A stretch of 64,000 bases of DNA from positions 144,192 to 208,191 of the forward strand of contig CAYSXR010000001.1 in NCBI GenBank assembly GCA_964435035.1. Direction: 5' to 3'. Positions within the stretch are counted from its first letter, which is position 1; each line of letters begins with the position of its first letter. The DNA is from an uncultured Gammaproteobacteria bacterium (lineage in GTDB: Bacteria; Patescibacteriota; Patescibacteriia; Magasanikbacterales; UBA922). Both the position numbers and the translations under genes were made by a program. The notes beneath the pieces are model-generated. The model saw only the letters and a list, made by a program, of their open reading frames with translations, ran no database searches and was not told the DNA's origin. This document shows, piece by piece, positions 38,775-55,248 of the stretch.

Positions 38775-38776
38775 CG

Positions 38777-39173
38777 TGGAGATGCCGGGAGTCGAACCCG
38801 GGTCTAGACGGGTTACCCCGATACTCTACATGTGTATCGATGTTTGGTGTTTCGCATACGAATATGAAACATCGAAAAATATCGCATGCTATCGCATGAA
38901 TGGTTTCAACTAACTTCCATACGAACAAAGTTAGTCTACGCTCGAACTAGGGTTGGCACCGTGGATCCACCATCGAGTATCGTGGGTACGATGGTCGTAG
39001 TGATTTAGGCTACAACAGAAGCAAAGCTAGGCATACTGAAAGCTTTCGCTACAGTGTTTTTAGCTCGCTCGAACAAGTTTGCACTTGTGGAATTGCCTAT
39101 TTGTTACAGAGACAGGCACTCTGACATGCATATACAAGATAACAGAATCCATCTATCGAAGCCTGTCATCCCC
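38777..39173 (-). ncRNA. ssrA: tmRNA (SsrA)
   Basis: 5' GGGGAUGACAGGCUUCGAUAG pairs with 3' ..GGGUUCGACUCCCGGCAUCUCCA, giving an acceptor stem with a G3:U pair and a T-arm. An internal tag frame ends ..PSFASVVA-UAA (stop at 39005-39007). It is adjacent to smpB. Confidence 0.9.
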
Positions 39174-43377: not shown

Positions 43378-43399
43378 ATTATTTTTTAAATCTGTGTGT

Positions 43400-46240
43400 A
43401 TGGTAGCGATATCCCCCGAACAATCAGTACCGCAAGAATCACGAAAGAAAAAAACACCTGATACGGTAAAAATAGAGAAATATAGTGAGGTGTGGGAGCA
43501 TGCAAAAAATCTGGAGGGTAAAATAAAAAAACTCAAAGAACATGCAATCGATGCGGATGAAATCGGAGAAATAGAAGGTATTCTCAAAGATGCAAAAGGA
43601 TATTTTTCTAGATTTGGAGAGAAAAAAGATAAAGGCAGAAGTGTTGCTCAGCTTGAAGAGAGGCGTAAGGCTGCAGTAGAAAAACTTACTGACCTTAATC
43701 GGCGCATGGTGTCGATGCTTGAAAAATTAGGACAACCAATTCCTAATACTCTTTTGTCGTACAAAGACAGTGGATTTGTTGATATTGTAAAAGAATCTAA
43801 TAAAGAAGGGTTGTCTGAAGAAAAAAAAGAAGAAGTGTCTGAAGTTGTGGGTGCTCATATAATTCAGCCCCCTGAAAATTATTCTAAAGAGTCATTGGGT
43901 GATTCAGAAATTGGTGGTGTGAATAGTATCGAGGCGCCAGAGAAGAAGGAAGAAGTGTTGGTTTCTGCCGAAGAGTCGCCTGTAAATGTACGAGAGGAAT
44001 CATCCTCACCTGAAACACCAATAGAAGATGTTATCAAGATTTCTTCAGGAGGAAAAACATATGAATTCGGCTGGCACGAACAGGTGGTTTACACTACTGC
44101 AAAGGGTAAGCAGCTTGAGTGTATTGTGCTTGGAAAATCAAATGATGAGAATAAGCCGGGGCTTATTTTGAAAGATCTTGAAAAAGGAAAAGTATTTGCT
44201 CTTGGTGCAGATGCGGTTGCAAAACGGGTACATGTTTCTGATGGTGAAATAGTTTCTCCACGTGTAGAAAATAATAAGGCCGATTCTGGTCAATCTGCTG
44301 AAGGTGAAGATATTGATAGAGAAGAAAAAGCTGCTCTTGAAAAAATGAAAAAAGACCAGAGGGAAGTAGAAGAGAAAAAAGCTCAAGAATTAAGTGAATT
44401 ATTAGCACAAGCTGGAAAGTCTGCCGAAGATGACACTTCATTTGTACACACAAGCACAGATGAGAGGGGAAGTTTCGATCAGAAGATGGTTGATAAACTT
44501 GTAGCTGATGGATCGATTGAAAAAATTAACACGTTATTGAAAAATAAATCCGAGGTGTGGGTACAGGAAGATGGTAAATGGTATCAGGGTGTAGTGCAAG
44601 ATATTACCGGAGCACAGGTGGGTGTTACTGTAGGAGAGGAGGGTCGAGAGAAAAAATATTTCTATGTGGATGCTGAAGAATTTTTGGGCATGCAGGATCG
44701 AGCGAAAAAATTGTTGAAATACAAAAAAGAATTAGAGCTTCCCTCGGTGGTGGTGGACACCGAATTCCTCGCTCGTCCAGATACGATCACCAAAGGTGAA
44801 ATTTTTACTCCTCCGACCGAGAGAAAGACCGTACCTGACGTGCCTCTAGTGAGTATTGATACTCCATTGCCGGTACGAGAACGAAAAACCTACCCAGAAG
44901 TTTCAGAAAAAAAAGCAATACAGATGATTCAATCAGTCGCTGAAGAATTTGAAAAAACATGGAAAGGAATGCGCATGATGACGACAGAAAAACAAAAGAC
45001 CGGATGGCTCCAGAGTAAGGAAGTTGAACGAGAGATGACGGTGACAGAAAAAAAGGAGCAATTAGAAGCGTGGCTTGATATGGTGGAGCAGGCATTTGAT
45101 TCACTCGACAAGCAAAAAGATGGGACACACATGGAAAAACCAGTACTCATGTGGCATCAGGCACAGGCATTAATTCGCGCATTAGAAAATGAACTTCGGT
45201 ATACAGAAGAAACGAATAAAAGTGAAGAGTGGGATCACGCACTTGAGGCTTTTAGTAGTATAATTAATGAAAGAAGCACACGTCTCAAGGAAAAAAAGAA
45301 AGGGTCATTGATTGCACCGTGGGCCATGAAAACGACACTTGCTGCCTTGGGTGCTTTTGCAATCGGAAATGCAACAAACAATCGAATAGAAGATGTGGCT
45401 GCAGTGAGTGAACGATATATGGAAGCAGGTGAAAAAAAATATGAATTACCCAGAGAAGAACATACGGGTGATGCACAGAGAAATATGCTAGATTTTGTAA
45501 TTAATATGAATCGGATGATAAACGAGCCCACACTTTCGATAACACCCGTTGCAATTGATGCTCGACTTACTCCACAGATCAAGGATAAAATATCAGGGAA
45601 AGTTCCGGGTTTGGCTGGTGCAGAAATAGCATCTGATGGAAAATCAGTTACATTGACTTTTGATAATAACCAAACAGTTGAAAGTCGTCCTGAAAAAATA
45701 CAAAAGTCGGGTCGCGATAGTTGGAAACTGAAGACAGCTGAGAAAAAGGGTCCGGAGTATGGCGAACAAATGTTGAGAGAATTAAGGAAAGTATTGGGTG
45801 AAGTAAAGCAAGAGTTTCCTGATATGTTTCGTGGACCAGAATCATCTTCCAAGCAAAAGAGAGTAGTAAGAACAGTAGTACAGGCCGAAAAGAAATTACG
45901 AGAAGCAGAGGTAGTAATACCGAGAAGTGGTGAGGCGAGAAGACAGTTGGAACAAGTAAAACAGGTGTTGGAACAAGTAAAACCAGGACTCGAATCTATT
46001 TCAAAAGAGATTGTAGATGAGATTAAGGCAGAGGATCTCGAATTGCCACAGGATGTATTTGTGCGTTTTAGTCGAGAGGTTACGTTTGATCCAAAGGCAG
46101 ATGCTCTATTTGAGGAATGGGGAAATGCACGAAATTCTCTCAAAGCAGCACAGGAAGCAGGAGATCAAGAGGGGGTAAAGAAAAGTAACGAGGAGTTGCG
46201 TAAGGTTATTGAAAAAATAACGAAAGAGTATAGTAAATAA
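43400..46240 (+). CDS. Large charged hypothetical protein with two SH3/Tudor-like beta segments
   Basis: About 946 aa, rich in Lys/Glu coiled-coil-like stretches, with one central hydrophobic segment (TTLAALGAFAIGNA). ATG 43400 preferred over GTG 43394. Confidence 0.6.
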   Translation: MVAISPEQSVPQESRKKKTPDTVKIEKYSEVWEHAKNLEGKIKKLKEHAIDADEIGEIEGILKDAKGYFSRFGEKKDKGRSVAQLEERRKAAVEKLTDLNRRMVSMLEKLGQPIPNTLLSYKDSGFVDIVKESNKEGLSEEKKEEVSEVVGAHIIQPPENYSKESLGDSEIGGVNSIEAPEKKEEVLVSAEESPVNVREESSSPETPIEDVIKISSGGKTYEFGWHEQVVYTTAKGKQLECIVLGKSNDENKPGLILKDLEKGKVFALGADAVAKRVHVSDGEIVSPRVENNKADSGQSAEGEDIDREEKAALEKMKKDQREVEEKKAQELSELLAQAGKSAEDDTSFVHTSTDERGSFDQKMVDKLVADGSIEKINTLLKNKSEVWVQEDGKWYQGVVQDITGAQVGVTVGEEGREKKYFYVDAEEFLGMQDRAKKLLKYKKELELPSVVVDTEFLARPDTITKGEIFTPPTERKTVPDVPLVSIDTPLPVRERKTYPEVSEKKAIQMIQSVAEEFEKTWKGMRMMTTEKQKTGWLQSKEVEREMTVTEKKEQLEAWLDMVEQAFDSLDKQKDGTHMEKPVLMWHQAQALIRALENELRYTEETNKSEEWDHALEAFSSIINERSTRLKEKKKGSLIAPWAMKTTLAALGAFAIGNATNNRIEDVAAVSERYMEAGEKKYELPREEHTGDAQRNMLDFVINMNRMINEPTLSITPVAIDARLTPQIKDKISGKVPGLAGAEIASDGKSVTLTFDNNQTVESRPEKIQKSGRDSWKLKTAEKKGPEYGEQMLRELRKVLGEVKQEFPDMFRGPESSSKQKRVVRTVVQAEKKLREAEVVIPRSGEARRQLEQVKQVLEQVKPGLESISKEIVDEIKAEDLELPQDVFVRFSREVTFDPKADALFEEWGNARNSLKAAQEAGDQEGVKKSNEELRKVIEKITKEYSK

Positions 46241-46416: not shown

Positions 46417-46445
46417 TTGACAAAAAGGTATAAATATGCTATAGT
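46417..46445 (+). promoter_or_regulatory. Consensus sigma70-type promoter (TTGACA-17-TATAGT) driving the GC-rich island
   Basis: acTTGACAaaaaggtataaatatgcTATAGTac is near-identical in layout to the promoter at 63780-63808. Confidence 0.7.
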
Positions 46446-46655
46446 ACTGCGTTATTTCAAAAGCCCTACATAGGTCTTCGAAATAGCAATCCAGGGGCCC
46501 CATCAGAGAGGATATGTGTCCCTTCTGATGGAGTCCCTGGTCTAGGAGCTCCCACTGTGGCCCGTTCGGGCAATAGTGAGAGCCTTAGGCTCATTACAAT
46601 CGAAGAAGCTAGAACACGTGCCCCTATGAAAGGGGTGTAAACGAGGAGATCAGAA
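46446..46655 (+). promoter_or_regulatory. Structured 5' leader of about 200 nt
   Basis: Nested helices ccaggg[ccatcaga...tctgatgg]ccctgg, gcccg-tt-cgggc, gagcc-tta-ggctc, and cccct-atgaa-agggg just before SD gaggag. No known riboswitch recognised. Confidence 0.45.
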
Positions 46656-48104
46656 ATGATTGACCGCAACAAGAAGAGCAACAAGAAGAGCACGCCCGTG
46701 AAGGGCGGCGCTGCGGCGAACCCGCAGGCGATGGCAACCGTGGCGTCTCACAAGGACGACACGGCTCAGATCGATGTGGTGGTCGAGACCAATCCCGAGG
46801 CCGACAAGGTCGAGGGTGAGGTCAAGGCCGATGAAGAGGCGAAGGTCGAAGAGACCGTCGCCACCGCCCCGACCGAGAACGTCGAGAAGAGCGAGGAGCC
46901 GGCCGTTGTGGTCGACCCCGAGCCCGAGCTCGAGCAGAAGCGGAACTTCCGTAAGGAAGACCTCCGCCTCCGGTACAACGACAACCCGCAGGTGCTGCTC
47001 ACCTCCGCGGATCTCAGCGAAGAGGACAAGGTCCTCATCGGCGAGATCGCGAGCGAGCAGAACCAGGTCGTCCGCGACTATGCCGCGCTGGCACAGGAGC
47101 TGACCGACGAGAAGGACCAGCTCGAGCAGAAGCTCGACGCGACCAACTCCAAGCTGGGGAACGTCACCAACCTCATCGCGACCACGGTCAAGGAGACCGT
47201 GGGACAGGTGGACAAGGAGACGTCGGCCTTGATCGAAGGTCTGAAGATCGAGATCGAGGGCGTCATCGGCAAGGGTAACGGCGTGAAGAACGCCGTCACG
47301 AAGATCGGGGACGATGTCAACAAGGACATCGGCTCGCTCAAGGGTCAGGTCAACGCCAACGCCAAGTCGGTCAACGACAAGGTCGATGGGATGGCCGCGA
47401 TGCTCGGGAAGATCGACGAGAAGATCTCCGAGATCAAGTCCCCGCCGCCCCCGCAGCAGCCGCCGGCTCAGTCCAGCACCACCCCGTCCTCCGGATCCTC
47501 CGGGTGGCCGTGGGTCGTGGCCGTGGGCATCTTGCTCGCGGCCGTGATCGCGGTCTTCCTCCTGAACAAGGATGTGAAGATCGAGGTCCAGGTGCAGCAG
47601 CCGGCGGTGAACACCGTGAAGGGTGTGGTGCCGCCGGTGGTGGACAACGCTCTCGGGGTGACCTCGCAGCAGGTGACCCCGGGTGGACCGGGGAATCCGA
47701 TCGTGCCCACGGTGGTCGGTGCCACGTCCGAGGATCCCTGCAAGGGGAAGGTCGGTGGGGAGCTCGGGTCGTGTGTCCTTCAGCTGGAGAAGTTCCGGCC
47801 GAAGGGGTTCACTGATGCGCACTGGAACACGGTCGTCGAGACCTTCCAGAACGTCATCATGGTCCCCTTGAGCGTTCCGTTCAAGGACATCAAGCACCAC
47901 GACAAGGCCATCGAGCACAACATGAGGAAAGACGCGGCACTGCAGGCGTGCGTCGACGCATACGTCTTGAAGACGGATGATGTCGAGTCGAACGTCCGGT
48001 GTCAGCGGGCGGTCGATTGTCTGTTCACTTCGGTGGACGAGGCAGCACAGTGCTACATGACGCATACGCGCTCGATCACGGGCGTTTTGGTCACTGTCAA
48101 CTGA
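46656..48104 (+). CDS. Bitopic membrane protein: acidic coiled-coil N-domain, Pro-rich linker, TM, Cys-containing C-domain (island gene a)
   Basis: 482 aa with an SD upstream. TM helix WPWVVAVGILLAAVIAVFLL. Seven Cys residues, all C-terminal to the TM. Extreme GC3 codon usage (AAG/GAG/GAC/AAC/ATC). Confidence 0.75.
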   Translation: MIDRNKKSNKKSTPVKGGAAANPQAMATVASHKDDTAQIDVVVETNPEADKVEGEVKADEEAKVEETVATAPTENVEKSEEPAVVVDPEPELEQKRNFRKEDLRLRYNDNPQVLLTSADLSEEDKVLIGEIASEQNQVVRDYAALAQELTDEKDQLEQKLDATNSKLGNVTNLIATTVKETVGQVDKETSALIEGLKIEIEGVIGKGNGVKNAVTKIGDDVNKDIGSLKGQVNANAKSVNDKVDGMAAMLGKIDEKISEIKSPPPPQQPPAQSSTTPSSGSSGWPWVVAVGILLAAVIAVFLLNKDVKIEVQVQQPAVNTVKGVVPPVVDNALGVTSQQVTPGGPGNPIVPTVVGATSEDPCKGKVGGELGSCVLQLEKFRPKGFTDAHWNTVVETFQNVIMVPLSVPFKDIKHHDKAIEHNMRKDAALQACVDAYVLKTDDVESNVRCQRAVDCLFTSVDEAAQCYMTHTRSITGVLVTVN

Positions 48105-48119
48105 ACCTCAACCCAACTA

Positions 48120-48145
48120 GTCCGACCTCCCTCGGGAGGTCGGAC
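48120..48145 (+). other. Intercistronic GC hairpin
   Basis: gtccgacctcc-ctcg-ggaggtcggac forms a perfect 11-bp stem between island genes a and b. No T-run, so probably not a full terminator. Confidence 0.5.
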
Positions 48146-48159
48146 ACAGGAGAACAGAC

Positions 48160-49095
48160 ATGAAGCAGCTCGTCGCGAAGATCGTGGTTTATTACATCGT
48201 ACTTCTCTCGGCGTCGGCCTTCGGCTCGACGCCGAACCCCGGTGACCAGTTCGACCTGATCCAGGGAGGGATCCCGGCGAAGGTCGAGGTCACGCAGCAG
48301 GAGATCAAGGCGATGGACACGTCCATCGACCAGCTCCTGAAGCGCACCGGCGGTCTCCTCAAGAAGGACGCCGAGCTCAAGAAGGAGCTCGAGGACCTCA
48401 AGAAGGAGCTCGAGGACCTCAAGAGCAAGCTCGACAAGGTGGTGAAGCCGGGTGATCTCACGGTCATCCGAGTGGATCTGGGAAGGTTGTGGACGCAAGT
48501 CAACAACCATGGACAGCGCCTCACCGAGCTCGAGCAGGACGTCGAAGATCTGAAGAGGAGCGACAAGGCTCAGGACGATCGACTCGGTGATCACGACCAG
48601 AAAATCGAGGACATCAACAAGCGCCTCGATCGAGGTCTCGGAGTGAAGTTCGGCATCGGAGCCTATGGCGTCTACGGGACGCAAGGCTCGATCAACGGTG
48701 GAGCTTCGGCTCGGCTGAGGATCCCGCTGTCCGGTGGATGGCAAGCGATCGTCAATGGCGGAGTCGGCGGCAACCATCAGGGAGCTTCAGGATTCGCCGA
48801 TCTGTCGGTCGGCTACCAGTTCGCGAGCGGCATCTACCTGGGGGCAACCCTCGGTATCGACGCCAACTGCGACGGTATGTGCACCAGGCTCCTCACGGAG
48901 ATCTGGGGCGCAGGTCCCGACATCGGCTACCTGTCCGACGATGGACTCTTCATCCGGGCTCGTGTGCTCTTCGGGAGCGAGTGGATCAAGGGTCCGACGA
49001 TGCAGATCGAGTACCCGGATCGTACGGTCTTCAAGACCGACGAGTCCCGGGAGTTCGGCATCTCGGCTTTGATCCAGCTCGGTCACGAGTTCTAG
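48160..49095 (+). CDS. Signal-peptide protein with coiled coil and C-terminal OMP-like beta-barrel ending in Phe (island gene b)
   Basis: 311 aa with signal peptide ..LLSASAFG and heptads ELKKELEDLKKELEDLKSKLD. The last 150 aa or so have alternating Gly/aromatic beta-strand patterns and end ..ALIQLGHEF. Confidence 0.7.
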   Translation: MKQLVAKIVVYYIVLLSASAFGSTPNPGDQFDLIQGGIPAKVEVTQQEIKAMDTSIDQLLKRTGGLLKKDAELKKELEDLKKELEDLKSKLDKVVKPGDLTVIRVDLGRLWTQVNNHGQRLTELEQDVEDLKRSDKAQDDRLGDHDQKIEDINKRLDRGLGVKFGIGAYGVYGTQGSINGGASARLRIPLSGGWQAIVNGGVGGNHQGASGFADLSVGYQFASGIYLGATLGIDANCDGMCTRLLTEIWGAGPDIGYLSDDGLFIRARVLFGSEWIKGPTMQIEYPDRTVFKTDESREFGISALIQLGHEF

Positions 49096-49346
49096 ACTTC
49101 AAGATTCGGGGAGTGTCTCTACTCCCCGGACCCCTCACCTCGCCGACTTCAAGGCAGAAGGGATAAGACAATGAGACAAACACTCGAGTAAACGGCGTGG
49201 TCGCACAACGCGGCCCCCAATACTGGAGCATGGGCGATATTTCGAAAGAAATGTCGCCCCTCGCACAGCGTATATCAGTCTCTGGTATGCGATGACGAGA
49301 AAAGCATCTCACGTAAATCCCGACTAAATCGGGACACGTGACAAGC

Positions 49347-49375
49347 TTGACAAACGAGAGTATTTATGCTATACT
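49347..49375 (+). promoter_or_regulatory. Consensus sigma70-type promoter (TTGACA-17-TATACT)
   Basis: gcTTGACAaacgagagtatttatgcTATACTaag, located inside an AT-rich spacer of the GC-rich island. Confidence 0.7.
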
Positions 49376-49498
49376 AAGCTGTTACAAAATAAAGAAGTGC
49401 CATGGGAAATCTCGATGTAGTCGGGGTATCTATGGTAGATCGTCATGCACTGCATGGTGGTCCATTGAACCTTACAATATATGCGAAATGTATAAAAA

Positions 49499-49543
49499 GC
49501 TTGAAAGGCTAGAAAGGCCGGAAAGGCTTGAAATGCTAGAGAA
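49499..49543 (+). repeat. Five tandem 9-nt repeats (GCYNGAAAG) in a 5' leader
   Basis: gcttgaaag gctagaaag gccggaaag gcttgaaat gctagagaa. Confidence 0.75.
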
Positions 49544-49551
49544 CGTATCTT

Positions 49552-49677
49552 GTGACGTGAAGAAAGAAATTTTCAATAAGAATTTTTTCTTAGCGTCACG
49601 AGGAGTTCTCAGGCGTGAAAACTTCTCGTGTGGTACACGAGGAAGCAACAACAAAACCCCGATTGAATCGGGGAGGA
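49552..49677 (+). promoter_or_regulatory. Leader with mutually exclusive hairpins and a hairpin abutting the SD
   Basis: gtgacg...cgtcac hairpin. cttctcgtg (49622-30) can pair with cacgaggag (49597-605) or with cacgaggaag (49636-45). ccccga-ttgaa-tcgggg overlaps the 5' edge of SD ggaggag. Confidence 0.45.
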
Positions 49678-49685
49678 GAAGAGTC

Positions 49686-51452
49686 ATGAAGAAGTTCAAC
49701 AAGTTCCTGTTCGTCGTCATGTTCATCTCGTTCGTCGCGGCCATCACGGGCTGCGCCGATCACGGTGGCGAGACGGTCGTCGTCAAGGGTGACGATGGGG
49801 AGAGCGTCAAGCTCTGCCCCGAGGAGCATCAGTGCTCCTCGGCCGAGTTCTGCAACTCGCAGGGTCTCTGCGTCATCCCCGGTGCCAACGGCACCAACGG
49901 CGAGGACTTCGAGCGATGCTCGAATAGTCGTGGTGACTGTGTCGGTAACGAGCTCTGCAACTCGCAGGGCGTGTGTGTGCTCGAAGGTCCGCAAGGGCCG
50001 GCGGGGGAGTCCTGTACCGTGTCGACGAAGGTCGACGGGTGCTTCTTCCTCTACTGTGGCGCAAGCGTCACGGAGATCTGCGACGGCGAGGACGGTGTGT
50101 CCTGCACGGTCGCAGGGCAGCCGGACGGCAGCGCTCAGGTCGAGTGCTCGGACGGTTCGTTCGCGACCATCCTCCCCGGACAAGACGGCGAGGACGGTCT
50201 CAACGGCACGAGCTGCACGGCCTCGACGGTCAAAGGTTGCCTCGTGGTGACCTGCGGAACGCAGTCGACGGAGATCTGCCCGGAGGATCTTCCGGATCCC
50301 GAGCCGGTCGACGGCTGCCAGAAGGACTCGGACTGCACGGACGGCAGCGAGTGCACCAACGACATCTGCGATCTCAACACCGGCACCTGCCGGTACGTGT
50401 CGCAGGTGTGTGATGACGGCGTCGCCTGCACCAACGACTGGTGTGACACGAACGGCTACTGCCGTTCGACCGCGGACAATGATCAGTGCAGCGGCGGCGA
50501 CTTCTGCTTGCCGACCGGTTACTGGTTTTGGTCCTCGGCGGTGGGTTCTGAGGAACTCGCTGACGGAGGCTGTTACGAGTGCCGCTGGGACTCTGATTGT
50601 GCCGACGGCGACGCGTGTACGGTCGACACCTGCGACGCGGGTGTTTGCAAGAAGGAAACGCGCGAGTGCCCCACGGGTGCGACGTGCGTCGAGTACTCGA
50701 GCAACTACTACGACGACTCGGAGTGGAACTACGTGTGCCAGGACAATCCGTCGTGCAGCAACAACAGCCAGTGCGACGACGGCAAGTACTGGACGACGGA
50801 TGCGTGCGTGGCCGGGGAGTGTGTCTACACCCAGGTGTCGTGCAACGACAACAACGCATGCACCGTGGACACGGTGAACTCGAGTGGGCAGTGCACCTAC
50901 GCCCAGATCTCGTGCGACGATGGCAAATCCGCCACGGTCGACACGTGCTCTGCGAATACGGGGTGCGTACACACGCCGGTGAACACCGGCTGCGAGCACG
51001 ATCTCGATTGCGATGACGTCGACGGTACGACCACGGACCTGTGCGAGGACAACGGGAGCTGTACACATACTCCCAATGCCCAGTGCAAGTCCCTGACGGT
51101 CAAGGTCGGCTGGGCCATCCTGTGGTCGCGCGGTCCCGAGATCGGAACCACCAATGTCCCGATGGGCAACTGGCGTAGCTGCGAGGAAGACGAGGCGGAG
51201 AACTGCCGTACCATGTCGTGGTGCGGTGACGACATCGTGGAGTTCAATGTTCAGCAGATGCCGAACGTGGCAGGTGCCGACTGGCTCGTGAAGAACGAGA
51301 AAGGCGACAGCCCTTGCACGTCGAACGCAGATGCGACCTTGAACTACACGCCCGCTGATCTCTTCGTCGGGGCGACGCCGGTGCAGAAGGGCTGTTCGCT
51401 CTTCTGCGACCCGAACGGGTACACCAACTACACCTGCGATTCCGCGGAGTAG
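49686..51452 (+). CDS. Cys-rich repeat lipoprotein (island gene c)
   Basis: Start MKKFNKFLFVVMFISFVAAITGC (lipobox) follows SD ggggaggag. Repeats of the form C.(D/N)D.C....G.C, resembling Dictyostelium-CTDC-type units. The ORF-track start at 49338 was rejected. Confidence 0.75.
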   Translation: MKKFNKFLFVVMFISFVAAITGCADHGGETVVVKGDDGESVKLCPEEHQCSSAEFCNSQGLCVIPGANGTNGEDFERCSNSRGDCVGNELCNSQGVCVLEGPQGPAGESCTVSTKVDGCFFLYCGASVTEICDGEDGVSCTVAGQPDGSAQVECSDGSFATILPGQDGEDGLNGTSCTASTVKGCLVVTCGTQSTEICPEDLPDPEPVDGCQKDSDCTDGSECTNDICDLNTGTCRYVSQVCDDGVACTNDWCDTNGYCRSTADNDQCSGGDFCLPTGYWFWSSAVGSEELADGGCYECRWDSDCADGDACTVDTCDAGVCKKETRECPTGATCVEYSSNYYDDSEWNYVCQDNPSCSNNSQCDDGKYWTTDACVAGECVYTQVSCNDNNACTVDTVNSSGQCTYAQISCDDGKSATVDTCSANTGCVHTPVNTGCEHDLDCDDVDGTTTDLCEDNGSCTHTPNAQCKSLTVKVGWAILWSRGPEIGTTNVPMGNWRSCEEDEAENCRTMSWCGDDIVEFNVQQMPNVAGADWLVKNEKGDSPCTSNADATLNYTPADLFVGATPVQKGCSLFCDPNGYTNYTCDSAE

Positions 51453-51669
51453 TCGTACCCACAAACATTTCGTGTAAAAGCTTTGAGTAGCCTAGCTACC
51501 AGACTCAAAGTTCAATCAACGTAGCGGGAGGGGGCACAAGCGTTCATCTGAATTGCGCAAGCGATTCAGTGACGAGTGCCTCCCTCCCATTCCAACATAT
51601 CTTTATCAAAATTCAGAACTCAGATTACAGTGAGAGACTAGTGAGTATTGGTAGAGAGATGTGGGGATG

Positions 51670-51727
51670 GAAAATTCAAAACTTAAAACTTAAAACTCAA
51701 AATTTAGATTTAAGTTGTGAGTTATTA
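51670..51727. repeat. A/T-word intergenic repeat (family C, copy 2) inside the GC-rich island
   Basis: gaaaattcaaaacttaaaacttaaaactcaaaatttagatttaagttgtgag. Confidence 0.55.
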
Positions 51728-51795
51728 CAAACCCTTTCCATCATTATGATGGTTTCAATTCCCCTCAACCGCGACGACAGAAATGTCACGCGCGG

Positions 51796-51821
51796 AAAAA
51801 ACCCGCGCATGCGGGTTTTTT
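51796..51821. terminator. Strong bidirectional terminator
   Basis: aaaaaacccgc-gcat-gcgggtttttt. Confidence 0.85.
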
Positions 51822-51913
51822 AAATTCCATTACCTCGGGTATATCGTATAATGATGGTATATCTATGGTAGAGGAATTCTACACGCCAGTTCACAAAAAC
51901 CAGGAGGGGACAC

Positions 51914-52651
51914 ATGTTGGGTATGACGTTTCGTTTGTTTGTTTTCTGTCTCACCGTGTTCACCGCCGCATGCATCGAGGATATGCGGCGGGAGGAAGCG
52001 TCCATGGTCCAGGTCGATACGTCGACTGGCATCATGGATATGGTGGAGGAAGTCAAAGACGTACCAGATTCACGGGTCCGTGATCGGTATGATATCGAAT
52101 TTCCTCCTACAGCCGACGAGTGTGTCGTCGATGAATTCATCGCAGAGGGAAGCCCTTGCGATGATGGCGATGCATGCACGATCGATGTCTGTATCCAGGG
52201 CATGTGTCGTAATCGAGCTATCGACTGCGACGACGGAAATCCCTGGACGGATGACGAGTGCATCGTCGACACTGGGGCGTGCTCCAGTGTACATCGGGTG
52301 ACTCATTTCACCGTTCGCGCGGAGCGTCCGGGAAAGGTGAAGCTTTGGTATGGGAATCACACCGAGCCAGAGACCTATCCCATGAACTCGAGCTTCGAGA
52401 TCCAGAAGATGGATCTCTGCGTCGAGAACCGTGTGCTCACGCTCGCGGTAGAGGACGAAGAGTTCCCGGGAACCTACTGGGGTTGTAACCCTGGCCTTCC
52501 TTCGAAGAGGGAACTCGCAGTCGAGATCGACGGGGTGGACACGCCCGGTTATTTCGCTGCGGATCTCGGATGGGAGGTGCCCAACTCTGCGTGTGGTGGG
52601 AAGGGAGAGGGTGACCTCTACTTCTTGCGGGCGCAACTCGCATGTGACTGA
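51914..52651 (+). CDS. Small Cys-rich lipoprotein sharing the C-terminal domain of gene e (island gene d)
   Basis: SD aggagggg upstream. Signal peptide ..LTVFTAAC. Two Cys-rich units (CDDGDACTIDVC, CDDGNPWTDDEC). The C-domain motif CNPGLPSKRELAVEIDGV matches CNPGFPSKSTLTVMVNGV in gene e. Confidence 0.7.
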   Translation: MLGMTFRLFVFCLTVFTAACIEDMRREEASMVQVDTSTGIMDMVEEVKDVPDSRVRDRYDIEFPPTADECVVDEFIAEGSPCDDGDACTIDVCIQGMCRNRAIDCDDGNPWTDDECIVDTGACSSVHRVTHFTVRAERPGKVKLWYGNHTEPETYPMNSSFEIQKMDLCVENRVLTLAVEDEEFPGTYWGCNPGLPSKRELAVEIDGVDTPGYFAADLGWEVPNSACGGKGEGDLYFLRAQLACD

Positions 52652-52739
52652 TGACCGGGTGTCTCGCGAAGGATAGGATGGCGTATACGCTATGCTGTCC
52701 ACCTTCGCGAGCACCACTAATTCAACAAATAGAATTATA

Positions 52740-52768
52740 TTGACAAAATACTCTTTTCCTGATATGTT
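52740..52768 (+). promoter_or_regulatory. Putative promoter (TTGACA-17-TATGTT)
   Basis: The -35 is consensus and the -10 is weak. A leader of about 220 nt follows, with the long hairpin ctagagg..ccctctag (52881-52946). Confidence 0.45.
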
Positions 52769-52998
52769 GATACGATTGTATCTACGCATATCGGATATCT
52801 AGAGAGGTATCTGGTATGCGCCACTGGAGAATCATTCTCAAGTGTGTATGTTCATTATAATCACATAAGTTTTTTGTTCAGCTAGAGGATGGGTGCAGAT
52901 AGAGGTATATGTAACATATCTTGTATCGATAGCCACCCTCTAGCTGAGACACAGTGTCACTGCTGGAGTTCAACGGCCTCACAACGGAGGAAGGCCAA

Positions 52999-55041
52999 AT
53001 GCGTCTGAAGAACAACAACAACCGGATGTTCATCATCACGGTTGCCCTCGCCATGGGGTTCATGGCGGCGTGCACGGAACACGGCGGCGACGAGCCGATC
53101 GTGGTCGTGATGAAGGCGGACCTCGACCTCGACGAGGTCCCCAACAACGTCGACAACTGCCCGGGGGACAACAACCCCGATCAGTTGGACACCGACGGCG
53201 ACGGCATGGGCGATGCGTGCGACAACGACGTCGACGGCGACGGGGTCTTGAACCCCGCCGACAACTGCCCCGACAACTTCAACCCCGACCAGGCGAACCT
53301 CGACAAGGTCCTGGCCGACAGCGGCAACGTCACCGTGGTCGCGGATCTCTTCGGAGACGTCTGCGACAACGACGACGACGGCGACGTGGTCTGCGACCCC
53401 TGGCTCGGCGTGGACGGGTGGGAAGAATTCCATCCCGGTCAGGGCGAGACGTGTCAGGGCGAGGACAACTGTCCCGACGTCGCCAACGCCGACCAGGCGA
53501 ACCTCGACAAGGACTTCGAGGGCGACGTCTGCGACAACGACGTCGACGGCGACGGCGACCTCAACGGCGCAGACAACTGCCCGCTCGTGACCAACGCCGA
53601 CCAGGCAAACCTGGATCGGGACGACTGGGGCGACGCCTGCGACACCGACGACGACAACGACAGCTTCTGCGACGAAGCTGCCCCCGTCTCGATGCCGCGA
53701 AATGCGCCCGCGATGCCCCTCTGCGAGGGCGAGGACAACTGCCCCCGCTTCAAGAACGCGGGACAGGAAGACATGGACGAGGACGGCATGGGCGACGTCT
53801 GCGACGACGACTGCGACGGGGACCTCTACCCCGAAGCGTCGCCCTGGGATTTCCCCAACCTGTCGTGCTTCGTGTATTGCAATCCGGAAGGTCCGGGAAC
53901 CGAGTGCGACGACGCGAACACGTGCACCACGGACACCTGCAACGGGCAGGGCGTTTGCGAGTACGTGTTCACGCAGTCCGAGACGTGCGAATGCGTCTTG
54001 GACTCCGACTGCGAGCCGACCGACGCCTGCGTCACCGAGATGGCGTGCGTGGAAAACACGTGCGTCGAGACCGGATGGAAGGTCCTGACCGACGGGGACA
54101 ACTGCACCATCGACACCTGTGATCCCTCGACCGGCGTGGTCACCCACGTCGAGAAGGACTGTGGTGGGGACCTCTGCGGAGGAGGCCTCTCGTGTAACCG
54201 CATGACCGGAGAGTGCAGCACACCCGTGCCGCAAATTCCGATCAACGACAGCAACGCCTGCACCACCGACGCGTGCGATCCCGAGACCGGCGTGGTCACC
54301 CACGTCGCGATCGTCTGCGACGATGGGAACGCATGCAACGGCACCGAGACGTGCAACCCGGCTTCCGGGTGCGTCGCGGGTACGCCGCTCACGTGCGATG
54401 ACGGAAGCGTCTGCACGATCGACAGTTGTTCGGCAAACACCTGCCAACACGTGGCGGTGACGACGAACGACAACAACATGTGCACCACCGACACCTGCGA
54501 TCCCGAGATGGGGGTGCAGCACACGGCGGTGGTGTGCAACGACGTGAACTCCAACACCACCGACACCTGCGATCCGGCGACGGGTTGCGTGCACACGCCG
54601 ACGGGGAACTGCACGGTCAACGCGGATTGCAACGACAGCAATCCCCTGACCTACGACACCTGCGTCGCGCTCGTCTGCCAACATGTGGAAGGTGTCCGCG
54701 TGCAGGTCTCGTCGACCGACACGTCGGAGACCTGGCAGGTCAATTTCTACTACAACGGTACGACGATCTCCGGCAACCTGCCCTTCGACGGGACCTTGCC
54801 GAAGACGCTCGCATGCAGCTGGGGCGCCGACATCGCCGTCAACCGTCCGAGCACGAACTTGTTCTTGGACTGCAACCCGGGGTTCCCCTCGAAGTCCACC
54901 CTGACCGTCATGGTCAATGGTGTCACGAAGGCGAACGACTTCCAGGTTCGTTCGCAGGCATGCGACGGCGCTCCGCCGGGCAACCTGTGGCTCTCCGACG
55001 AGAGCGGTGACAACGACCTGGGATGCCCCGCGGCACCCTAG
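52999..55041 (+). CDS. Lipoprotein with thrombospondin-type-3-like Ca-binding repeats and Cys-rich repeats (island gene e)
   Basis: SD ggaggaagg, then MRLKNNNNRMFIITVALAMGFMAAC. Repeated DNCPxxxNxDQxDxDxDGxGDxCDxDxDGD units, then repeated CxxDxCDPxTGxxH units. The mature N-terminus CTEHGGDE resembles CADHGGE of gene c. Confidence 0.75.
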   Translation: MRLKNNNNRMFIITVALAMGFMAACTEHGGDEPIVVVMKADLDLDEVPNNVDNCPGDNNPDQLDTDGDGMGDACDNDVDGDGVLNPADNCPDNFNPDQANLDKVLADSGNVTVVADLFGDVCDNDDDGDVVCDPWLGVDGWEEFHPGQGETCQGEDNCPDVANADQANLDKDFEGDVCDNDVDGDGDLNGADNCPLVTNADQANLDRDDWGDACDTDDDNDSFCDEAAPVSMPRNAPAMPLCEGEDNCPRFKNAGQEDMDEDGMGDVCDDDCDGDLYPEASPWDFPNLSCFVYCNPEGPGTECDDANTCTTDTCNGQGVCEYVFTQSETCECVLDSDCEPTDACVTEMACVENTCVETGWKVLTDGDNCTIDTCDPSTGVVTHVEKDCGGDLCGGGLSCNRMTGECSTPVPQIPINDSNACTTDACDPETGVVTHVAIVCDDGNACNGTETCNPASGCVAGTPLTCDDGSVCTIDSCSANTCQHVAVTTNDNNMCTTDTCDPEMGVQHTAVVCNDVNSNTTDTCDPATGCVHTPTGNCTVNADCNDSNPLTYDTCVALVCQHVEGVRVQVSSTDTSETWQVNFYYNGTTISGNLPFDGTLPKTLACSWGADIAVNRPSTNLFLDCNPGFPSKSTLTVMVNGVTKANDFQVRSQACDGAPPGNLWLSDESGDNDLGCPAAP

Positions 55042-55226
55042 AACTTCTCCTGCGACGACTGCAGGAGCATCTCGAAGTGAACGTGTGATTCGCTTCTGTA
55101 GGTGAATGTTCGAAGACAATCACACAAACCGGGGGAAGTGCGCTCGCTACTACAGCGACCGCTTCCTCCCCTCTACTCTGAATTCAAGTACGATCTTGAG
55201 AATAGAGTAGAAGGGCACGCTAGAAT

Positions 55227-55248
55227 AACCGCACTATGCGGTTTTTTT
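55227..55248 (+). terminator. Rho-independent terminator at right edge of island
   Basis: aaccgca-cta-tgcggtt followed by ttttt. Confidence 0.8.

What the first reader, a model, noticed from the sequence alone, without database searches (positions are those of the whole stretch)
46656..49095. Two-gene operon pairing a bitopic coiled-coil protein with the OMP-like barrel
Gene a has no signal peptide. It has an acidic, coiled-coil N-terminal half of about 270 aa, a Pro-rich linker (SPPPPQQPPAQSSTTPSSGSSG), one TM helix, and a C-terminal domain of about 170 aa that contains all seven Cys residues of the protein, which suggests an extracytoplasmic, disulfide-bonded domain. Gene b follows 55 nt later. 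A perfect 11-bp GC hairpin (48120-48145) with no U-run lies between them, which suggests co-transcription with a processing or stability element. An inner-membrane-spanning protein plus an outer-barrel partner is the layout of trans-envelope complexes. I do not recognise either protein.
Basis: inference. Interest (0 to 1): 0.5.

Follow-up and report, generated by a model that had tools for sequence, protein, structure and literature searches.

The report
CPR surface operon with OMP-like barrel
A tiny, probably parasitic bacterium thought to have no outer membrane carries a conserved two-gene unit for a membrane anchor and an outer-membrane-type barrel on a helical stalk. The unit lies in a five-gene surface-protein island whose codon usage is the reverse of the rest of the genome.

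Summary
Gene a (46656-48104) and gene b (48160-49095) are real, 55 nt apart, with no promoter or terminator between them. They are adjacent in all eight related loci. Gene a has six Cys, not seven. The 11-bp hairpin is real but occurs only in the window and its closest relative, so it is not a conserved processing element.

Gene b has a Sec signal, a helical domain and a confidently predicted 8-stranded barrel. Its best structural matches are OmpW, NspA and OmpA. Both proteins are orphans confined to one clade of Candidatus Magasanikbacteria (CPR/Patescibacteria), a group regarded as lacking an outer membrane.

Alleles are recombinant mosaics. Gene a's outer domain and gene b's stalk are exchanged as one block, while the barrel assorts independently. 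This fits an a-b contact, but the two segments are also adjacent on the DNA.

The pair opens a five-gene surface-protein island with GC3 of 0.65-0.89, against 0.26-0.42 elsewhere in the window. The island has native-type amino-acid composition, AT-rich spacers, consensus promoters and long, nearly invariant leaders. This state is conserved in seven lineages and appears to be maintained.

Best reading (confidence about 0.4): a two-part envelope tether that works like OmpM or Thermotoga Ompα/Ompβ. Which membrane holds the barrel is unknown.

The parts
46417..46445 (+). Promoter of the a-b operon: TTGACA, 17 nt, TGcTATAGT (extended -10)
   Evidence: It matches 11 of 12 consensus positions and has the TG motif. 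The window holds four such sites, three of them in the island, against 0.14 expected by chance. The site is invariant in five lineages.
46449..46655 (+). 5' leader of gene a, about 205 nt, nearly invariant and predicted to be strongly folded
   Evidence: The leader is 82-95% identical across lineages whose a proteins are only 45-78% identical. The MFE is -88.9 kcal/mol, z = -7.1. The consensus fold is -70 kcal/mol but has only one compensatory pair. No Rfam family matches, and there is no conserved uORF.
46656..47504 (+). Gene a, cytoplasmic N-domain (aa 1-283): basic N-tip, acidic tract, long helices, variable Pro-rich linker
   Evidence: There is no signal peptide and the net charge is -17. 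Helices span residues 89-260 in a low-confidence model. Pfam gives only coiled-coil noise.
47505..47564 (+). Gene a, single transmembrane helix (aa 284-303)
   Evidence: The highest Kyte-Doolittle 19-residue window scores 2.75 at residue 285. W284, W286 and G291 are invariant.
47565..47834 (+). Gene a, conserved extracytoplasmic juxtamembrane stretch with the first Cys pair (aa 304-393)
   Evidence: Invariant motifs are TSQQ, GGP, DPC..G..G..C, RP and WNTV. Mean pairwise identity is 0.59-0.65.
47835..48104 (+). Gene a, variable helical ectodomain with four Cys (aa 394-482); left half of the exchanged cassette
   Evidence: There are three types that are 26-48% identical to one another. L045 and L002 are 96-99% identical at the DNA level here. 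pLDDT is 62-79 and the domain is helical.
48120..48145 (+). Lineage-specific GC hairpin in the a-b spacer
   Evidence: Free energy is -25 kcal/mol, z = -4.2. It occurs once in the window. It is present only in the window and L003.
48148..48152 (+). Shine-Dalgarno sequence (AGGAG) of gene b
   Evidence: Read from the sequence. The ACACAGGAG context is conserved in all loci.
48160..48219 (+). Gene b, Sec signal peptide (aa 1-20, ASA|F)
   Evidence: It shows the pattern of a basic start, a hydrophobic core and an AxA site. The pattern is conserved in all lineages (AQA|K, VQA|A). No signal-peptide predictor was run.
48220..48639 (+). Gene b, helical stalk domain (aa 21-160); right half of the exchanged cassette
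   Evidence: Helices span residues 37-63, 69-92 and 97-137. There are three types that are 25-41% identical, and they match the a-ectodomain types. A breakpoint lies at about 48,575-48,650.
48640..49095 (+). Gene b, 8-stranded OMP-type beta-barrel (aa 161-311), ending ...LGHEF
49096..49685 (+). Conserved spacer: b 3' region, gene-3 promoter (49347-49375) and gene-3 leader
   Evidence: The spacer is 72-96% identical at the DNA level across lineages. The promoter matches 11 of 12 positions and has TG.
49686..55041 (+). Rest of the codon-inverted island: three Cys-rich lipoproteins (49686-51452, 51914-52651, 52999-55041), each with its own AT-rich spacer
   Evidence: They carry Dicty_CTDC and TSP3 repeats and lipoboxes. 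GC3 is 0.65-0.89. The layout is conserved in L013, L010 and L045. Terminator-like sites lie at 51796-51821 and 55227-55243.

Best explanation
Genes a and b form one operon. It is transcribed from a near-consensus promoter through a long, conserved leader, and it encodes two subunits of a cell-surface complex in a narrow clade of Candidatus Magasanikbacteria.

Protein a is a type II bitopic anchor in the cytoplasmic membrane. Its acidic helical N-half lies in the cytoplasm. Outside the membrane it has a conserved extended stretch and then a small helical ectodomain with conserved Cys that probably form disulfides.

Protein b is exported by Sec. Its helical N-domain docks on a's ectodomain. Its C-terminal 8-stranded barrel, of the OmpW/OmpA/OmpX type, inserts into a lipid layer beyond the cytoplasmic membrane. 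That layer would be either an unrecognised outer layer of this bacterium or the envelope of the cell it attaches to.

Functionally this is a two-part tether, comparable to OmpM/SlpA or Thermotoga Ompα/Ompβ, with protein a taking the place of the SLH-peptidoglycan anchor.

Shown: the operon layout, the co-occurrence, the barrel fold, the orphan status, the mosaic exchange of the a-ectodomain/b-stalk block, and the fast protein evolution.

Inferred: the topology of a, the a-b contact, membrane insertion of the barrel, and which membrane it enters.
For: - There is one promoter, no terminator between the genes, and a Shine-Dalgarno site before b.
- Gene a directly precedes gene b in 8 of 8 related loci.
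- Gene b's barrel is predicted with pLDDT 80-92. Its best matches by two methods are exclusively outer-membrane-type barrels.
- Seven of eight strands alternate a hydrophobic face with a polar, Gly-rich face, and every strand is at least 11 residues long.
- Five of seven lineages end in an aromatic residue (GHEF, GYWF), and family member P0009 ends GRWF.
- Gene a's six Cys are conserved and lie only in the C-domain, and a has a single TM helix.
- The a-ectodomain type matches the b-stalk type in 7 of 7 lineages, while the barrel type assorts independently.
- L045 and L002 are 96-99% identical at the DNA level over exactly the a-ectodomain, spacer and b-stalk, and about 62% identical in the barrel. 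The breakpoints fall at domain boundaries.
- The barrel has many invariant columns, so it is under purifying selection and is not a decaying relic.
- Precedents exist for a stalk-plus-barrel tether and for a two-part operon version (PMC10628300, PMC10160955).
Against: - No co-folding or experimental evidence shows an a-b contact. The co-varying segments are contiguous on the DNA, so linkage alone could explain the match.
- Patescibacteria are proposed to lack an outer membrane (PMC12102498). The few imaged members are monoderm (PMC8871954). The window shows no BamA or other outer-membrane biogenesis gene, so the barrel has no obvious membrane to enter and no obvious way to be inserted.
- The model of protein a is poor (mean pLDDT 44) and has no structural match.
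- The barrel rests on a five-sequence alignment, and I could not inspect coordinates to confirm which face points outward.
- One lineage (L045) has an in-frame TAG in gene a.
Confidence: 0.4

Rival explanations
1. Proteins a and b are co-expressed but functionally independent surface proteins. Protein b acts alone as a secreted barrel that inserts itself into the partner cell's membrane, serving as an adhesin, a pore or a channel for scavenging hydrophobic molecules (OmpW/AlkL-like). Protein a does something unrelated, such as linking to the cytoskeleton or to cell division. The matching a-ectodomain and b-stalk types reflect only their adjacency on the DNA.
For: - The co-varying segments are contiguous, separated by only 28-55 nt of spacer.
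- The best fold match is OmpW, and AlkL and FadL also appear. These are channels for hydrophobic molecules.
- Patescibacteria depend on their hosts for fatty acids and attach to both monoderm and diderm hosts (bioRxiv 10.1101/2024.03.08.584096).
- There is no direct evidence for an a-b interface.
Against: - The a-b order and adjacency are strictly kept in 8 of 8 loci, even though recombination in the region is rampant.
- Both recombination breakpoints fall at domain boundaries.
- Gene b has no promoter of its own, whereas genes 3 and 5 have a consensus promoter and gene 4 follows a terminator.
Confidence: 0.3
2. This Magasanikbacteria clade is in fact diderm, or keeps an outer lipid-protein layer. 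Protein b is then a conventional outer-membrane protein assembled by a BAM-like machine through its C-terminal aromatic signal, and a-b is its tether to the inner membrane.
For: - The barrel is of the OMP type, and its ends (...LGYWF...LGHEF...LGRWF) resemble the OMP beta-signal.
- The envelope architecture of most CPR lineages has never been examined (PMC8871954).
- CPR belong to the Terrabacteria, where OmpM-type tethers are ancestral (PMC10160955).
Against: - Patescibacteria are proposed to lack an outer membrane, and their T4SS is of the monoderm type (PMC12102498).
- No outer-membrane biogenesis gene lies in the 64-kb window.
- The b family is confined to one small clade, which is not what an ancestral outer-membrane component would show.
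- The C-terminal aromatic residue is not universal. L002 ends in L, and L007 has an acidic tail after the last strand.
Confidence: 0.12
3. The GC-rich island, including a and b, is a horizontally acquired relic from a high-GC diderm donor such as a myxobacterium. Gene b is a stranded outer-membrane-protein gene with no real role in a monoderm.
For: - GC3 is 0.81-0.89 against about 0.31 in the flanks.
- The neighbouring genes carry TSP3 and Cys-rich repeats, with a sub-threshold match to Myxococcus MtsC.
Against: - Neither a nor b has a relative outside this clade among 5.8 billion clusters or 1.84 billion representatives.
- The amino-acid composition is native. K/(K+R) is 0.79 and 0.59, and the GARP fraction equals that of the flanks.
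- The GC enrichment starts at the ATG and stops at the stop codon. The spacers are AT-rich and carry host-type promoters.
- The island lies at the same chromosomal site in seven lineages, with GC3 still 0.74-0.90.
- Synonymous substitution patterns imply an equilibrium GC3 of about 0.8 for gene a, not decay.
- The barrel is under purifying selection.
- There is no integrase and no att-like flanking repeat, and b has no match in the phage collection or to any PHROG family beyond coiled-coil noise.
Confidence: 0.06
4. The feature is an assembly or binning artefact: a chimera of high-GC and low-GC organisms.
For: - The GC content switches abruptly.
- Two of the MAGs carrying the locus are labelled Gammaproteobacteria.
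Against: - The same junctions, flanks and alternation of AT-rich spacers with GC-rich ORFs recur in independent assemblies from NCBI, Logan and JGI samples.
- The GC switches coincide with start and stop codons.
- Flanking housekeeping genes are 92-99.5% identical between assemblies.
Confidence: 0.01

Closest known systems
SlpA/OmpM superfamily (outer-membrane tether and porin of diderm Terrabacteria)
   Same: Both have a Sec signal, then an alpha-helical or coiled-coil stalk, then a C-terminal transmembrane-type beta-barrel in one polypeptide. In OmpM the stalk points inward from the barrel's termini. CPR belong to the Terrabacteria (PMC10628300, PMC10160955).
   Different: Gene b has no SLH domain. 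Its barrel has 8 strands rather than 16 or more. There is no sequence homology. I propose that the inner anchor is a separate bitopic membrane protein (a) rather than peptidoglycan. The host is thought to have no outer membrane.
Thermotoga Ompα/Ompβ two-part toga tether (operon)
   Same: Both are two adjacent, co-transcribed genes that split the job between a coiled-coil anchor protein and a beta-barrel protein. In both, the barrel partner is poorly conserved and evolves fast (PMC10160955).
   Different: Ompα anchors through SLH to peptidoglycan and has a stalk of about 45-50 nm. Here the helical stalk is on the barrel protein, and the anchor is an integral cytoplasmic-membrane protein with a Cys-rich ectodomain. 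There is no homology.
Small 8-stranded outer-membrane barrels (OmpW, NspA, OmpA N-domain, OmpX/Ail, OprF-N, PagL, Thermus TtoA)
   Different: Sequence identity is 7-18%. No Pfam or NCBIfam OMP model matches. Gene b has an added N-terminal helical domain. Its distal loop 3 and hairpin 7-8 are the most conserved parts, whereas the external loops of classical OMPs are the most variable. The organism is a CPR bacterium.
Long stabilising 5' UTRs of abundant envelope-protein mRNAs (E. coli ompA leader, S-layer gene leaders; from my own knowledge, not tested here)
   Same: Both have a strong promoter and a long, highly structured leader ahead of an envelope-protein gene.
   Different: There is no sequence or Rfam relationship. 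The function of this leader is untested. Its near-invariance extends to stretches predicted to be unpaired.

Membership tests
8-stranded OMP beta-barrel fold class (OmpA/OmpX/OmpW-like) | Eight long antiparallel strands forming a closed meander barrel | tested here: met
8-stranded OMP beta-barrel fold class (OmpA/OmpX/OmpW-like) | Lipid-facing hydrophobic exterior and polar, Gly-rich interior | tested here: inconclusive
   Seven of eight strands alternate a hydrophobic face (KD +1.3 to +3.3) with a polar, Gly-rich face.
8-stranded OMP beta-barrel fold class (OmpA/OmpX/OmpW-like) | Sequence membership in a curated OMP family (Pfam or NCBIfam) | tested here: not met
   No OMP model matches in Pfam or NCBIfam. 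An HMM search against PDB sequences found nothing relevant.
8-stranded OMP beta-barrel fold class (OmpA/OmpX/OmpW-like) | C-terminal beta-signal ending in an aromatic residue | tested here: inconclusive
   Five of seven lineages end in GHEF or GYWF, and family member P0009 ends GRWF. L002 ends in RSL, and L007 has a 30-aa acidic tail after the last strand.
8-stranded OMP beta-barrel fold class (OmpA/OmpX/OmpW-like) | Resides in an outer membrane and is assembled by BAM | not testable with these tools
   I could see only 64 kb of the genome, and it holds no BamA. The literature regards Patescibacteria as lacking an outer membrane (PMC12102498).
SlpA/OmpM superfamily | N-terminal SLH domain that binds peptidoglycan-linked polymers | tested here: not met
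   Pfam finds no SLH match in a or b.
SlpA/OmpM superfamily | Coiled-coil stalk between the anchor and the barrel | tested here: inconclusive
   Gene b has helices at 37-63, 69-92 and 97-137 with pLDDT 61-81. Pfam and NCBIfam give coiled-coil-type noise hits. The model folds the helices back into a bundle.
SlpA/OmpM superfamily | Large porin-type barrel (16 or more strands; the porin is trimeric in OmpM) | tested here: not met
   Only eight strands are predicted.
Trimeric autotransporter adhesins | C-terminal anchor of four strands per chain and an N-terminal passenger exported through it | tested here: not met
   Each chain has eight strands, and no YadA-type anchor model matches.
Phage spanins (Rz/Rz1) or another mobile-element module | Phage or mobile-element context; i-spanin plus an outer-membrane lipoprotein | tested here: not met
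   PHROGs gives only coiled-coil noise. tblastn of b against the phage collection finds nothing. Gene b has no lipobox. The chromosomal synteny is conserved.

The most novel reading that the evidence does not exclude
Protein b is a self-inserting outer-membrane-type barrel. A monoderm CPR epibiont exports it and plants it in the outer membrane of its diderm host. Through b's stalk and a's ectodomain, the barrel stays tied to the epibiont's own membrane and cytoplasm, forming a tether or conduit between the two cells. The exchangeable a-ectodomain/b-stalk cassette and the separate barrel types would be modules that diversify.

In addition, the five genes of this surface island are kept at inverted codon usage (GC3 about 0.9 in a genome with GC3 about 0.3) by selection on the mRNA or on its translation. 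That would make it a previously undescribed expression programme specific to one gene class.
Probability: 0.12. Interest if true: 0.9.

Novelty: new variant of a known kind. Interest (0 to 1): 0.7.

Why it matters
How CPR/Patescibacteria build their envelope and hold on to host cells is largely unknown, and almost none can be cultured. This locus offers a concrete candidate to test: a conserved pair, probably highly expressed, with a membrane anchor and an outer-membrane-type barrel in a lineage assumed to have one membrane.

Either outcome would be informative. Some CPR may keep or have reinvented an outer layer with an OmpM-like tether, which bears on the transition from two membranes to one in the Terrabacteria. 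Alternatively, an epibiont may export a barrel into another cell's membrane.

The island is also an unusually clean natural case of codon usage that differs by gene and is maintained over time. Five adjacent surface-protein genes have GC3 up to 0.89, against 0.26-0.42 in all 29 other ORFs of the window. Amino-acid composition is native, spacers are AT-rich, and the state is the same in seven lineages. This could help separate selection on synonymous sites from GC-biased gene conversion in bacteria.

There is a practical point too. Public gene callers often annotate the antisense strand of these genes, so the family is under-represented in protein databases.

Tried and rejected
- **Family searches for a and b.** Pfam, NCBIfam and PHROGs gave only coiled-coil noise. 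Profiles against PDB sequences gave nothing.
- **Fold search for a.** Foldseek with the a model gave nothing, and the model is too poor to rely on.
- **AFDB fold search.** The library was not available.
- **Rfam for the leader.** There was no match at the gathering threshold or at E<=10.
- **Covariation in the leader.** The sequences are too similar. Only one compensatory pair was found, so the structure remains unproven.
- **Leader 18-mer scans.** The JGI metagenome scan returned 29 hits, all due to chance. The genome scan returned three true loci among eight hits.
- **Hairpin as a conserved processing element.** Rejected, because it is absent from four of six lineages.
- **Hairpin as a repeated REP-like element.** Rejected, because it occurs once in the window.
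- **Horizontal-transfer relic, mobile island, phage origin and chimeric assembly.** Rejected for the reasons given under the rival explanations.
- **Long antisense ORFs over every island gene.** Rejected as genes. They arise because the sense strand avoids TTA, CTA and TCA codons.
- **Conserved uORF in the leader.** Rejected. The short ATG-started frames in the window's leader are not conserved.
- **'Gammaproteobacteria' labels on two MAGs.** Rejected as mislabels. Housekeeping proteins at least 90% identical to the window's are named Candidatus Magasanikbacteria in three NCBI records.
Full report
**1. The observation**

Gene a is at 46656-48104 (482 aa) and gene b is at 48160-49095 (311 aa), with 55 nt between them.

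Gene a has no signal peptide. Residues 1-270 carry a net charge of -17. It has a Pro-rich linker and one strongly hydrophobic segment at about residues 284-303. It has six Cys, not seven, and all lie in the last 121 residues.

The spacer hairpin at 48120-48145 is real. It has an 11-bp stem, a free energy of -25 kcal/mol (z = -4.2) and occurs once in the window. An AGGAG Shine-Dalgarno site follows it.

**2. Host and setting**

The window is an ordinary bacterial chromosome. It carries a tmRNA, two tRNAs, PheST, pyruvate kinase, PPDK, peptidases and glycosyltransferases.

Housekeeping proteins at least 90% identical to the window's are named Candidatus Magasanikbacteria in three NCBI MAG records. 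The lineage is Patescibacteria group > Parcubacteria group. Two MAGs that carry the same locus are labelled Gammaproteobacteria, and I regard those labels as errors.

Patescibacteria are proposed to lack an outer membrane (PMC12102498). The few imaged members are monoderm, and most lineages have never been examined (PMC8871954).

**3. Conservation and operon structure**

Both proteins are orphans. Gene a found four relatives among 5.8 billion protein clusters, and a seven-sequence profile added only one more. Gene b also found four relatives. An exhaustive HMM search with b's barrel against 1.84 billion representatives found two true hits.

Every locus recovered has gene a directly upstream of gene b. 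These are L003, L004/L002/L013, L005, L006, L007/L010 and L045. Where the flanks are known, the chromosomal context is always the same: SmpB ... Wzz-like, DUF5663, a large Lys/Glu-rich protein, then a and b.

A near-consensus extended -10 promoter lies at 46417-45. A leader of about 205 nt follows, and it is 82-95% identical across lineages whose a proteins are only 45-78% identical. Its predicted fold is far more stable than shuffled controls (z = -7.1) and it matches no Rfam family. Because the sequences are so similar, there is almost no covariation, so the structure is unproven.

No promoter or terminator lies between a and b. The hairpin occurs only in the window and L003, so it is not a conserved element.

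**4. What the proteins look like**

Gene b has a Sec-type signal (ASA|F), helices over residues 37-137, and eight long strands over residues 163-310 with pLDDT 80-92.

- All 42 significant Foldseek hits are outer-membrane-type barrels.
- Seven of eight strands alternate a hydrophobic face with a polar, Gly-rich face.
- Most lineages end in GHEF or GYWF, and family member P0009 ends GRWF. These endings resemble the OMP beta-signal, but the feature is not universal.

No OMP sequence family matches.

The model of protein a is poor (pLDDT 44). Only the C-terminal helical domain reaches pLDDT 62-79, and no fold match was found. The most conserved parts of a are the TM helix, the stretch just outside the membrane, and the first Cys pair.

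**5. Mosaic alleles**

Between the window and L002, flanking genes are 92-99.5% identical at the protein level. Gene a is 52% identical and gene b is 41%.

Identity measured domain by domain shows three types of a-ectodomain (aa 394-482) and three types of b-stalk. The two always match: type I in the window and L003; type II in L005, L002, L045 and L006; type III in L007/L010. The barrel groups differently, because the L045 and L006 barrels are window-like.

At the DNA level, L045 and L002 are 96-99% identical from about 47,880 to about 48,540 in window coordinates. That block covers the a-ectodomain, the spacer and the b-stalk. In the barrel they are only about 62% identical, whereas L045 is 84-92% identical to the window there. 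The breakpoints fall at domain boundaries.

This is what one would expect if a's ectodomain and b's stalk are co-adapted partners. However, the two segments are also neighbours on the DNA, so linkage alone could produce the same pattern.

**6. The island and its codon usage**

Genes a and b open a block of about 8.5 kb containing five genes. The other three are Cys-rich lipoproteins with Dicty_CTDC and TSP3 repeats.

- GC3 is 0.65-0.89 in the island, against 0.26-0.42 in all 29 other ORFs of the window.
- Codon choice is inverted: AAG 97% against 20%, ATC 98% against 21%, and TTC 100% against 20%.
- Amino-acid composition is native. K/(K+R) is 0.79 in a, and the GARP fraction is the same as in the flanks.
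- G/C-ending codons begin at the ATG, even within signal peptides.
- The spacers are AT-rich. Three of the window's four consensus extended -10 promoters lie in them, against 0.14 expected by chance.
- The spacers are better conserved than the coding regions they separate.
- The layout and the GC3 values recur in seven lineages.

I polarised the synonymous changes using outgroup sequences. G-to-C and C-to-G swaps per GC-ending site are about five times more frequent in a and b (0.12) than in the flanks (0.022). The implied equilibrium GC3 is about 0.8 for a and about 0.6 for b. The counts are small and parsimony is biased, so these figures are rough.

Bacterial mutation is biased towards AT (PMC2936535, PMC2936529). 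The high GC3 therefore appears to be maintained, either by selection on the mRNA or its translation, or by GC-biased gene conversion in this recombination hot spot. The AT-rich parts of the spacers that are not conserved argue against gene conversion as the sole cause. I found no published precedent in the library.

**7. Interpretation**

My best reading (confidence about 0.4) is a two-part envelope tether. Protein a anchors in the cytoplasmic membrane. Protein b's stalk docks on a's ectodomain. Protein b's barrel sits in a lipid layer beyond the cytoplasmic membrane.

This works like OmpM/SlpA or Thermotoga Ompα/Ompβ (PMC10628300, PMC10160955). It is not a member of those families, because it has no SLH domain, only eight strands and no homology.

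Which membrane holds the barrel is open. It could be an unrecognised outer layer of this clade, or the envelope of a host cell. [quoted passage not shown]

Unlike classical OMPs, b's distal loop 3 and hairpin 7-8 are its most conserved parts. This hints that they bind a conserved partner.

The rival readings are: independent surface proteins (0.3), a truly diderm clade (0.12), a horizontal-transfer relic (0.06) and an assembly artefact (0.01).

**8. Verdict**

The hairpin idea is not supported.

- The host is a CPR bacterium, which is not expected to have an outer membrane.
- The pair belongs to a conserved, recombining island of surface-protein genes with inverted codon usage.

Noticed in passing
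window 46500-55100 (five genes: 46656-48104, 48160-49095, 49686-51452, 51914-52651, 52999-55041): This island has inverted codon usage. GC3 is 0.65-0.89, against 0.26-0.42 in all 29 other ORFs of the window. Amino-acid composition is native and the spacers are AT-rich. The state is conserved in seven lineages and appears to be maintained.
   Followed up: yes
window 46449-46655: The leader of gene a, about 205 nt long, is nearly invariant and folds strongly (z = -7.1). It matches no Rfam family and is much better conserved than the gene it precedes. Its function is unknown.
   Followed up: partly
window 49096-49685, 51453-51913 and 52652-52998: The b-gene 3 spacer is 72-96% identical in DNA across lineages, which is better than the neighbouring coding regions. 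The gene 3-gene 4 spacer is partly conserved in L045 and L013. No match was found for the gene 4-gene 5 spacer. Genes 3 and 5 have their own consensus extended -10 promoters (49347-49375 and 52740-52768) and leaders of about 230-310 nt.
   Followed up: partly
window 49686-51452, 51914-52651 and 52999-55041: These are three predicted lipoproteins with lipoboxes ITGC, TAAC and MAAC. They are rich in Cys repeats of the CxDxxxCTxDxC type (Dicty_CTDC) and in thrombospondin type 3 repeats. In other lineages, gene 3 carries collagen-like GDKGxxG repeats.
   Followed up: partly
window 46650-48065 (-), 49596-51464 (-), 52957-55119 (-); L002 8467-9987 (-); L045 11068-11685 (-) and 15277-17211 (-): A long antisense ORF covers every island gene. 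These ORFs are a by-product of the sense strand avoiding TTA, CTA and TCA codons. Public gene calls chose the antisense strand in L002 and L045, so a, b and gene 5 are missing or truncated in protein databases.
   Followed up: partly
L045 9782-9784: Gene a has a single in-frame TAG where other lineages have Tyr or Trp. The rest of the gene is intact. This is either a recent nonsense mutation or an assembly error.
   Followed up: partly
L010 (CAZMEW010000013.1) and L013 (CAYUTO010000002.1): Both MAG contigs carry this Magasanikbacteria locus but are titled 'uncultured Gammaproteobacteria bacterium'. This is probably a mislabel or a binning error.
   Followed up: partly
window 38776-39173 (-): The tmRNA has an unusual predicted tag peptide, ANLFERAKNTVAKAFSMPSFASVVA.
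   Followed up: no
window 43394-46240: A 948-aa Lys/Glu-rich protein lies just upstream of the island in every lineage. It has normal GC, no family match apart from a weak sub-threshold NCBIfam hit (XXXCH domain), and one hydrophobic segment near residue 640. Its length varies from 932 to 1214 aa, and it is only 47-62% identical between lineages.
   Followed up: no
window 48375-48414: A 21-nt tandem duplication in b's helical domain (KKELEDL twice) is seen only in the window's allele.
   Followed up: no
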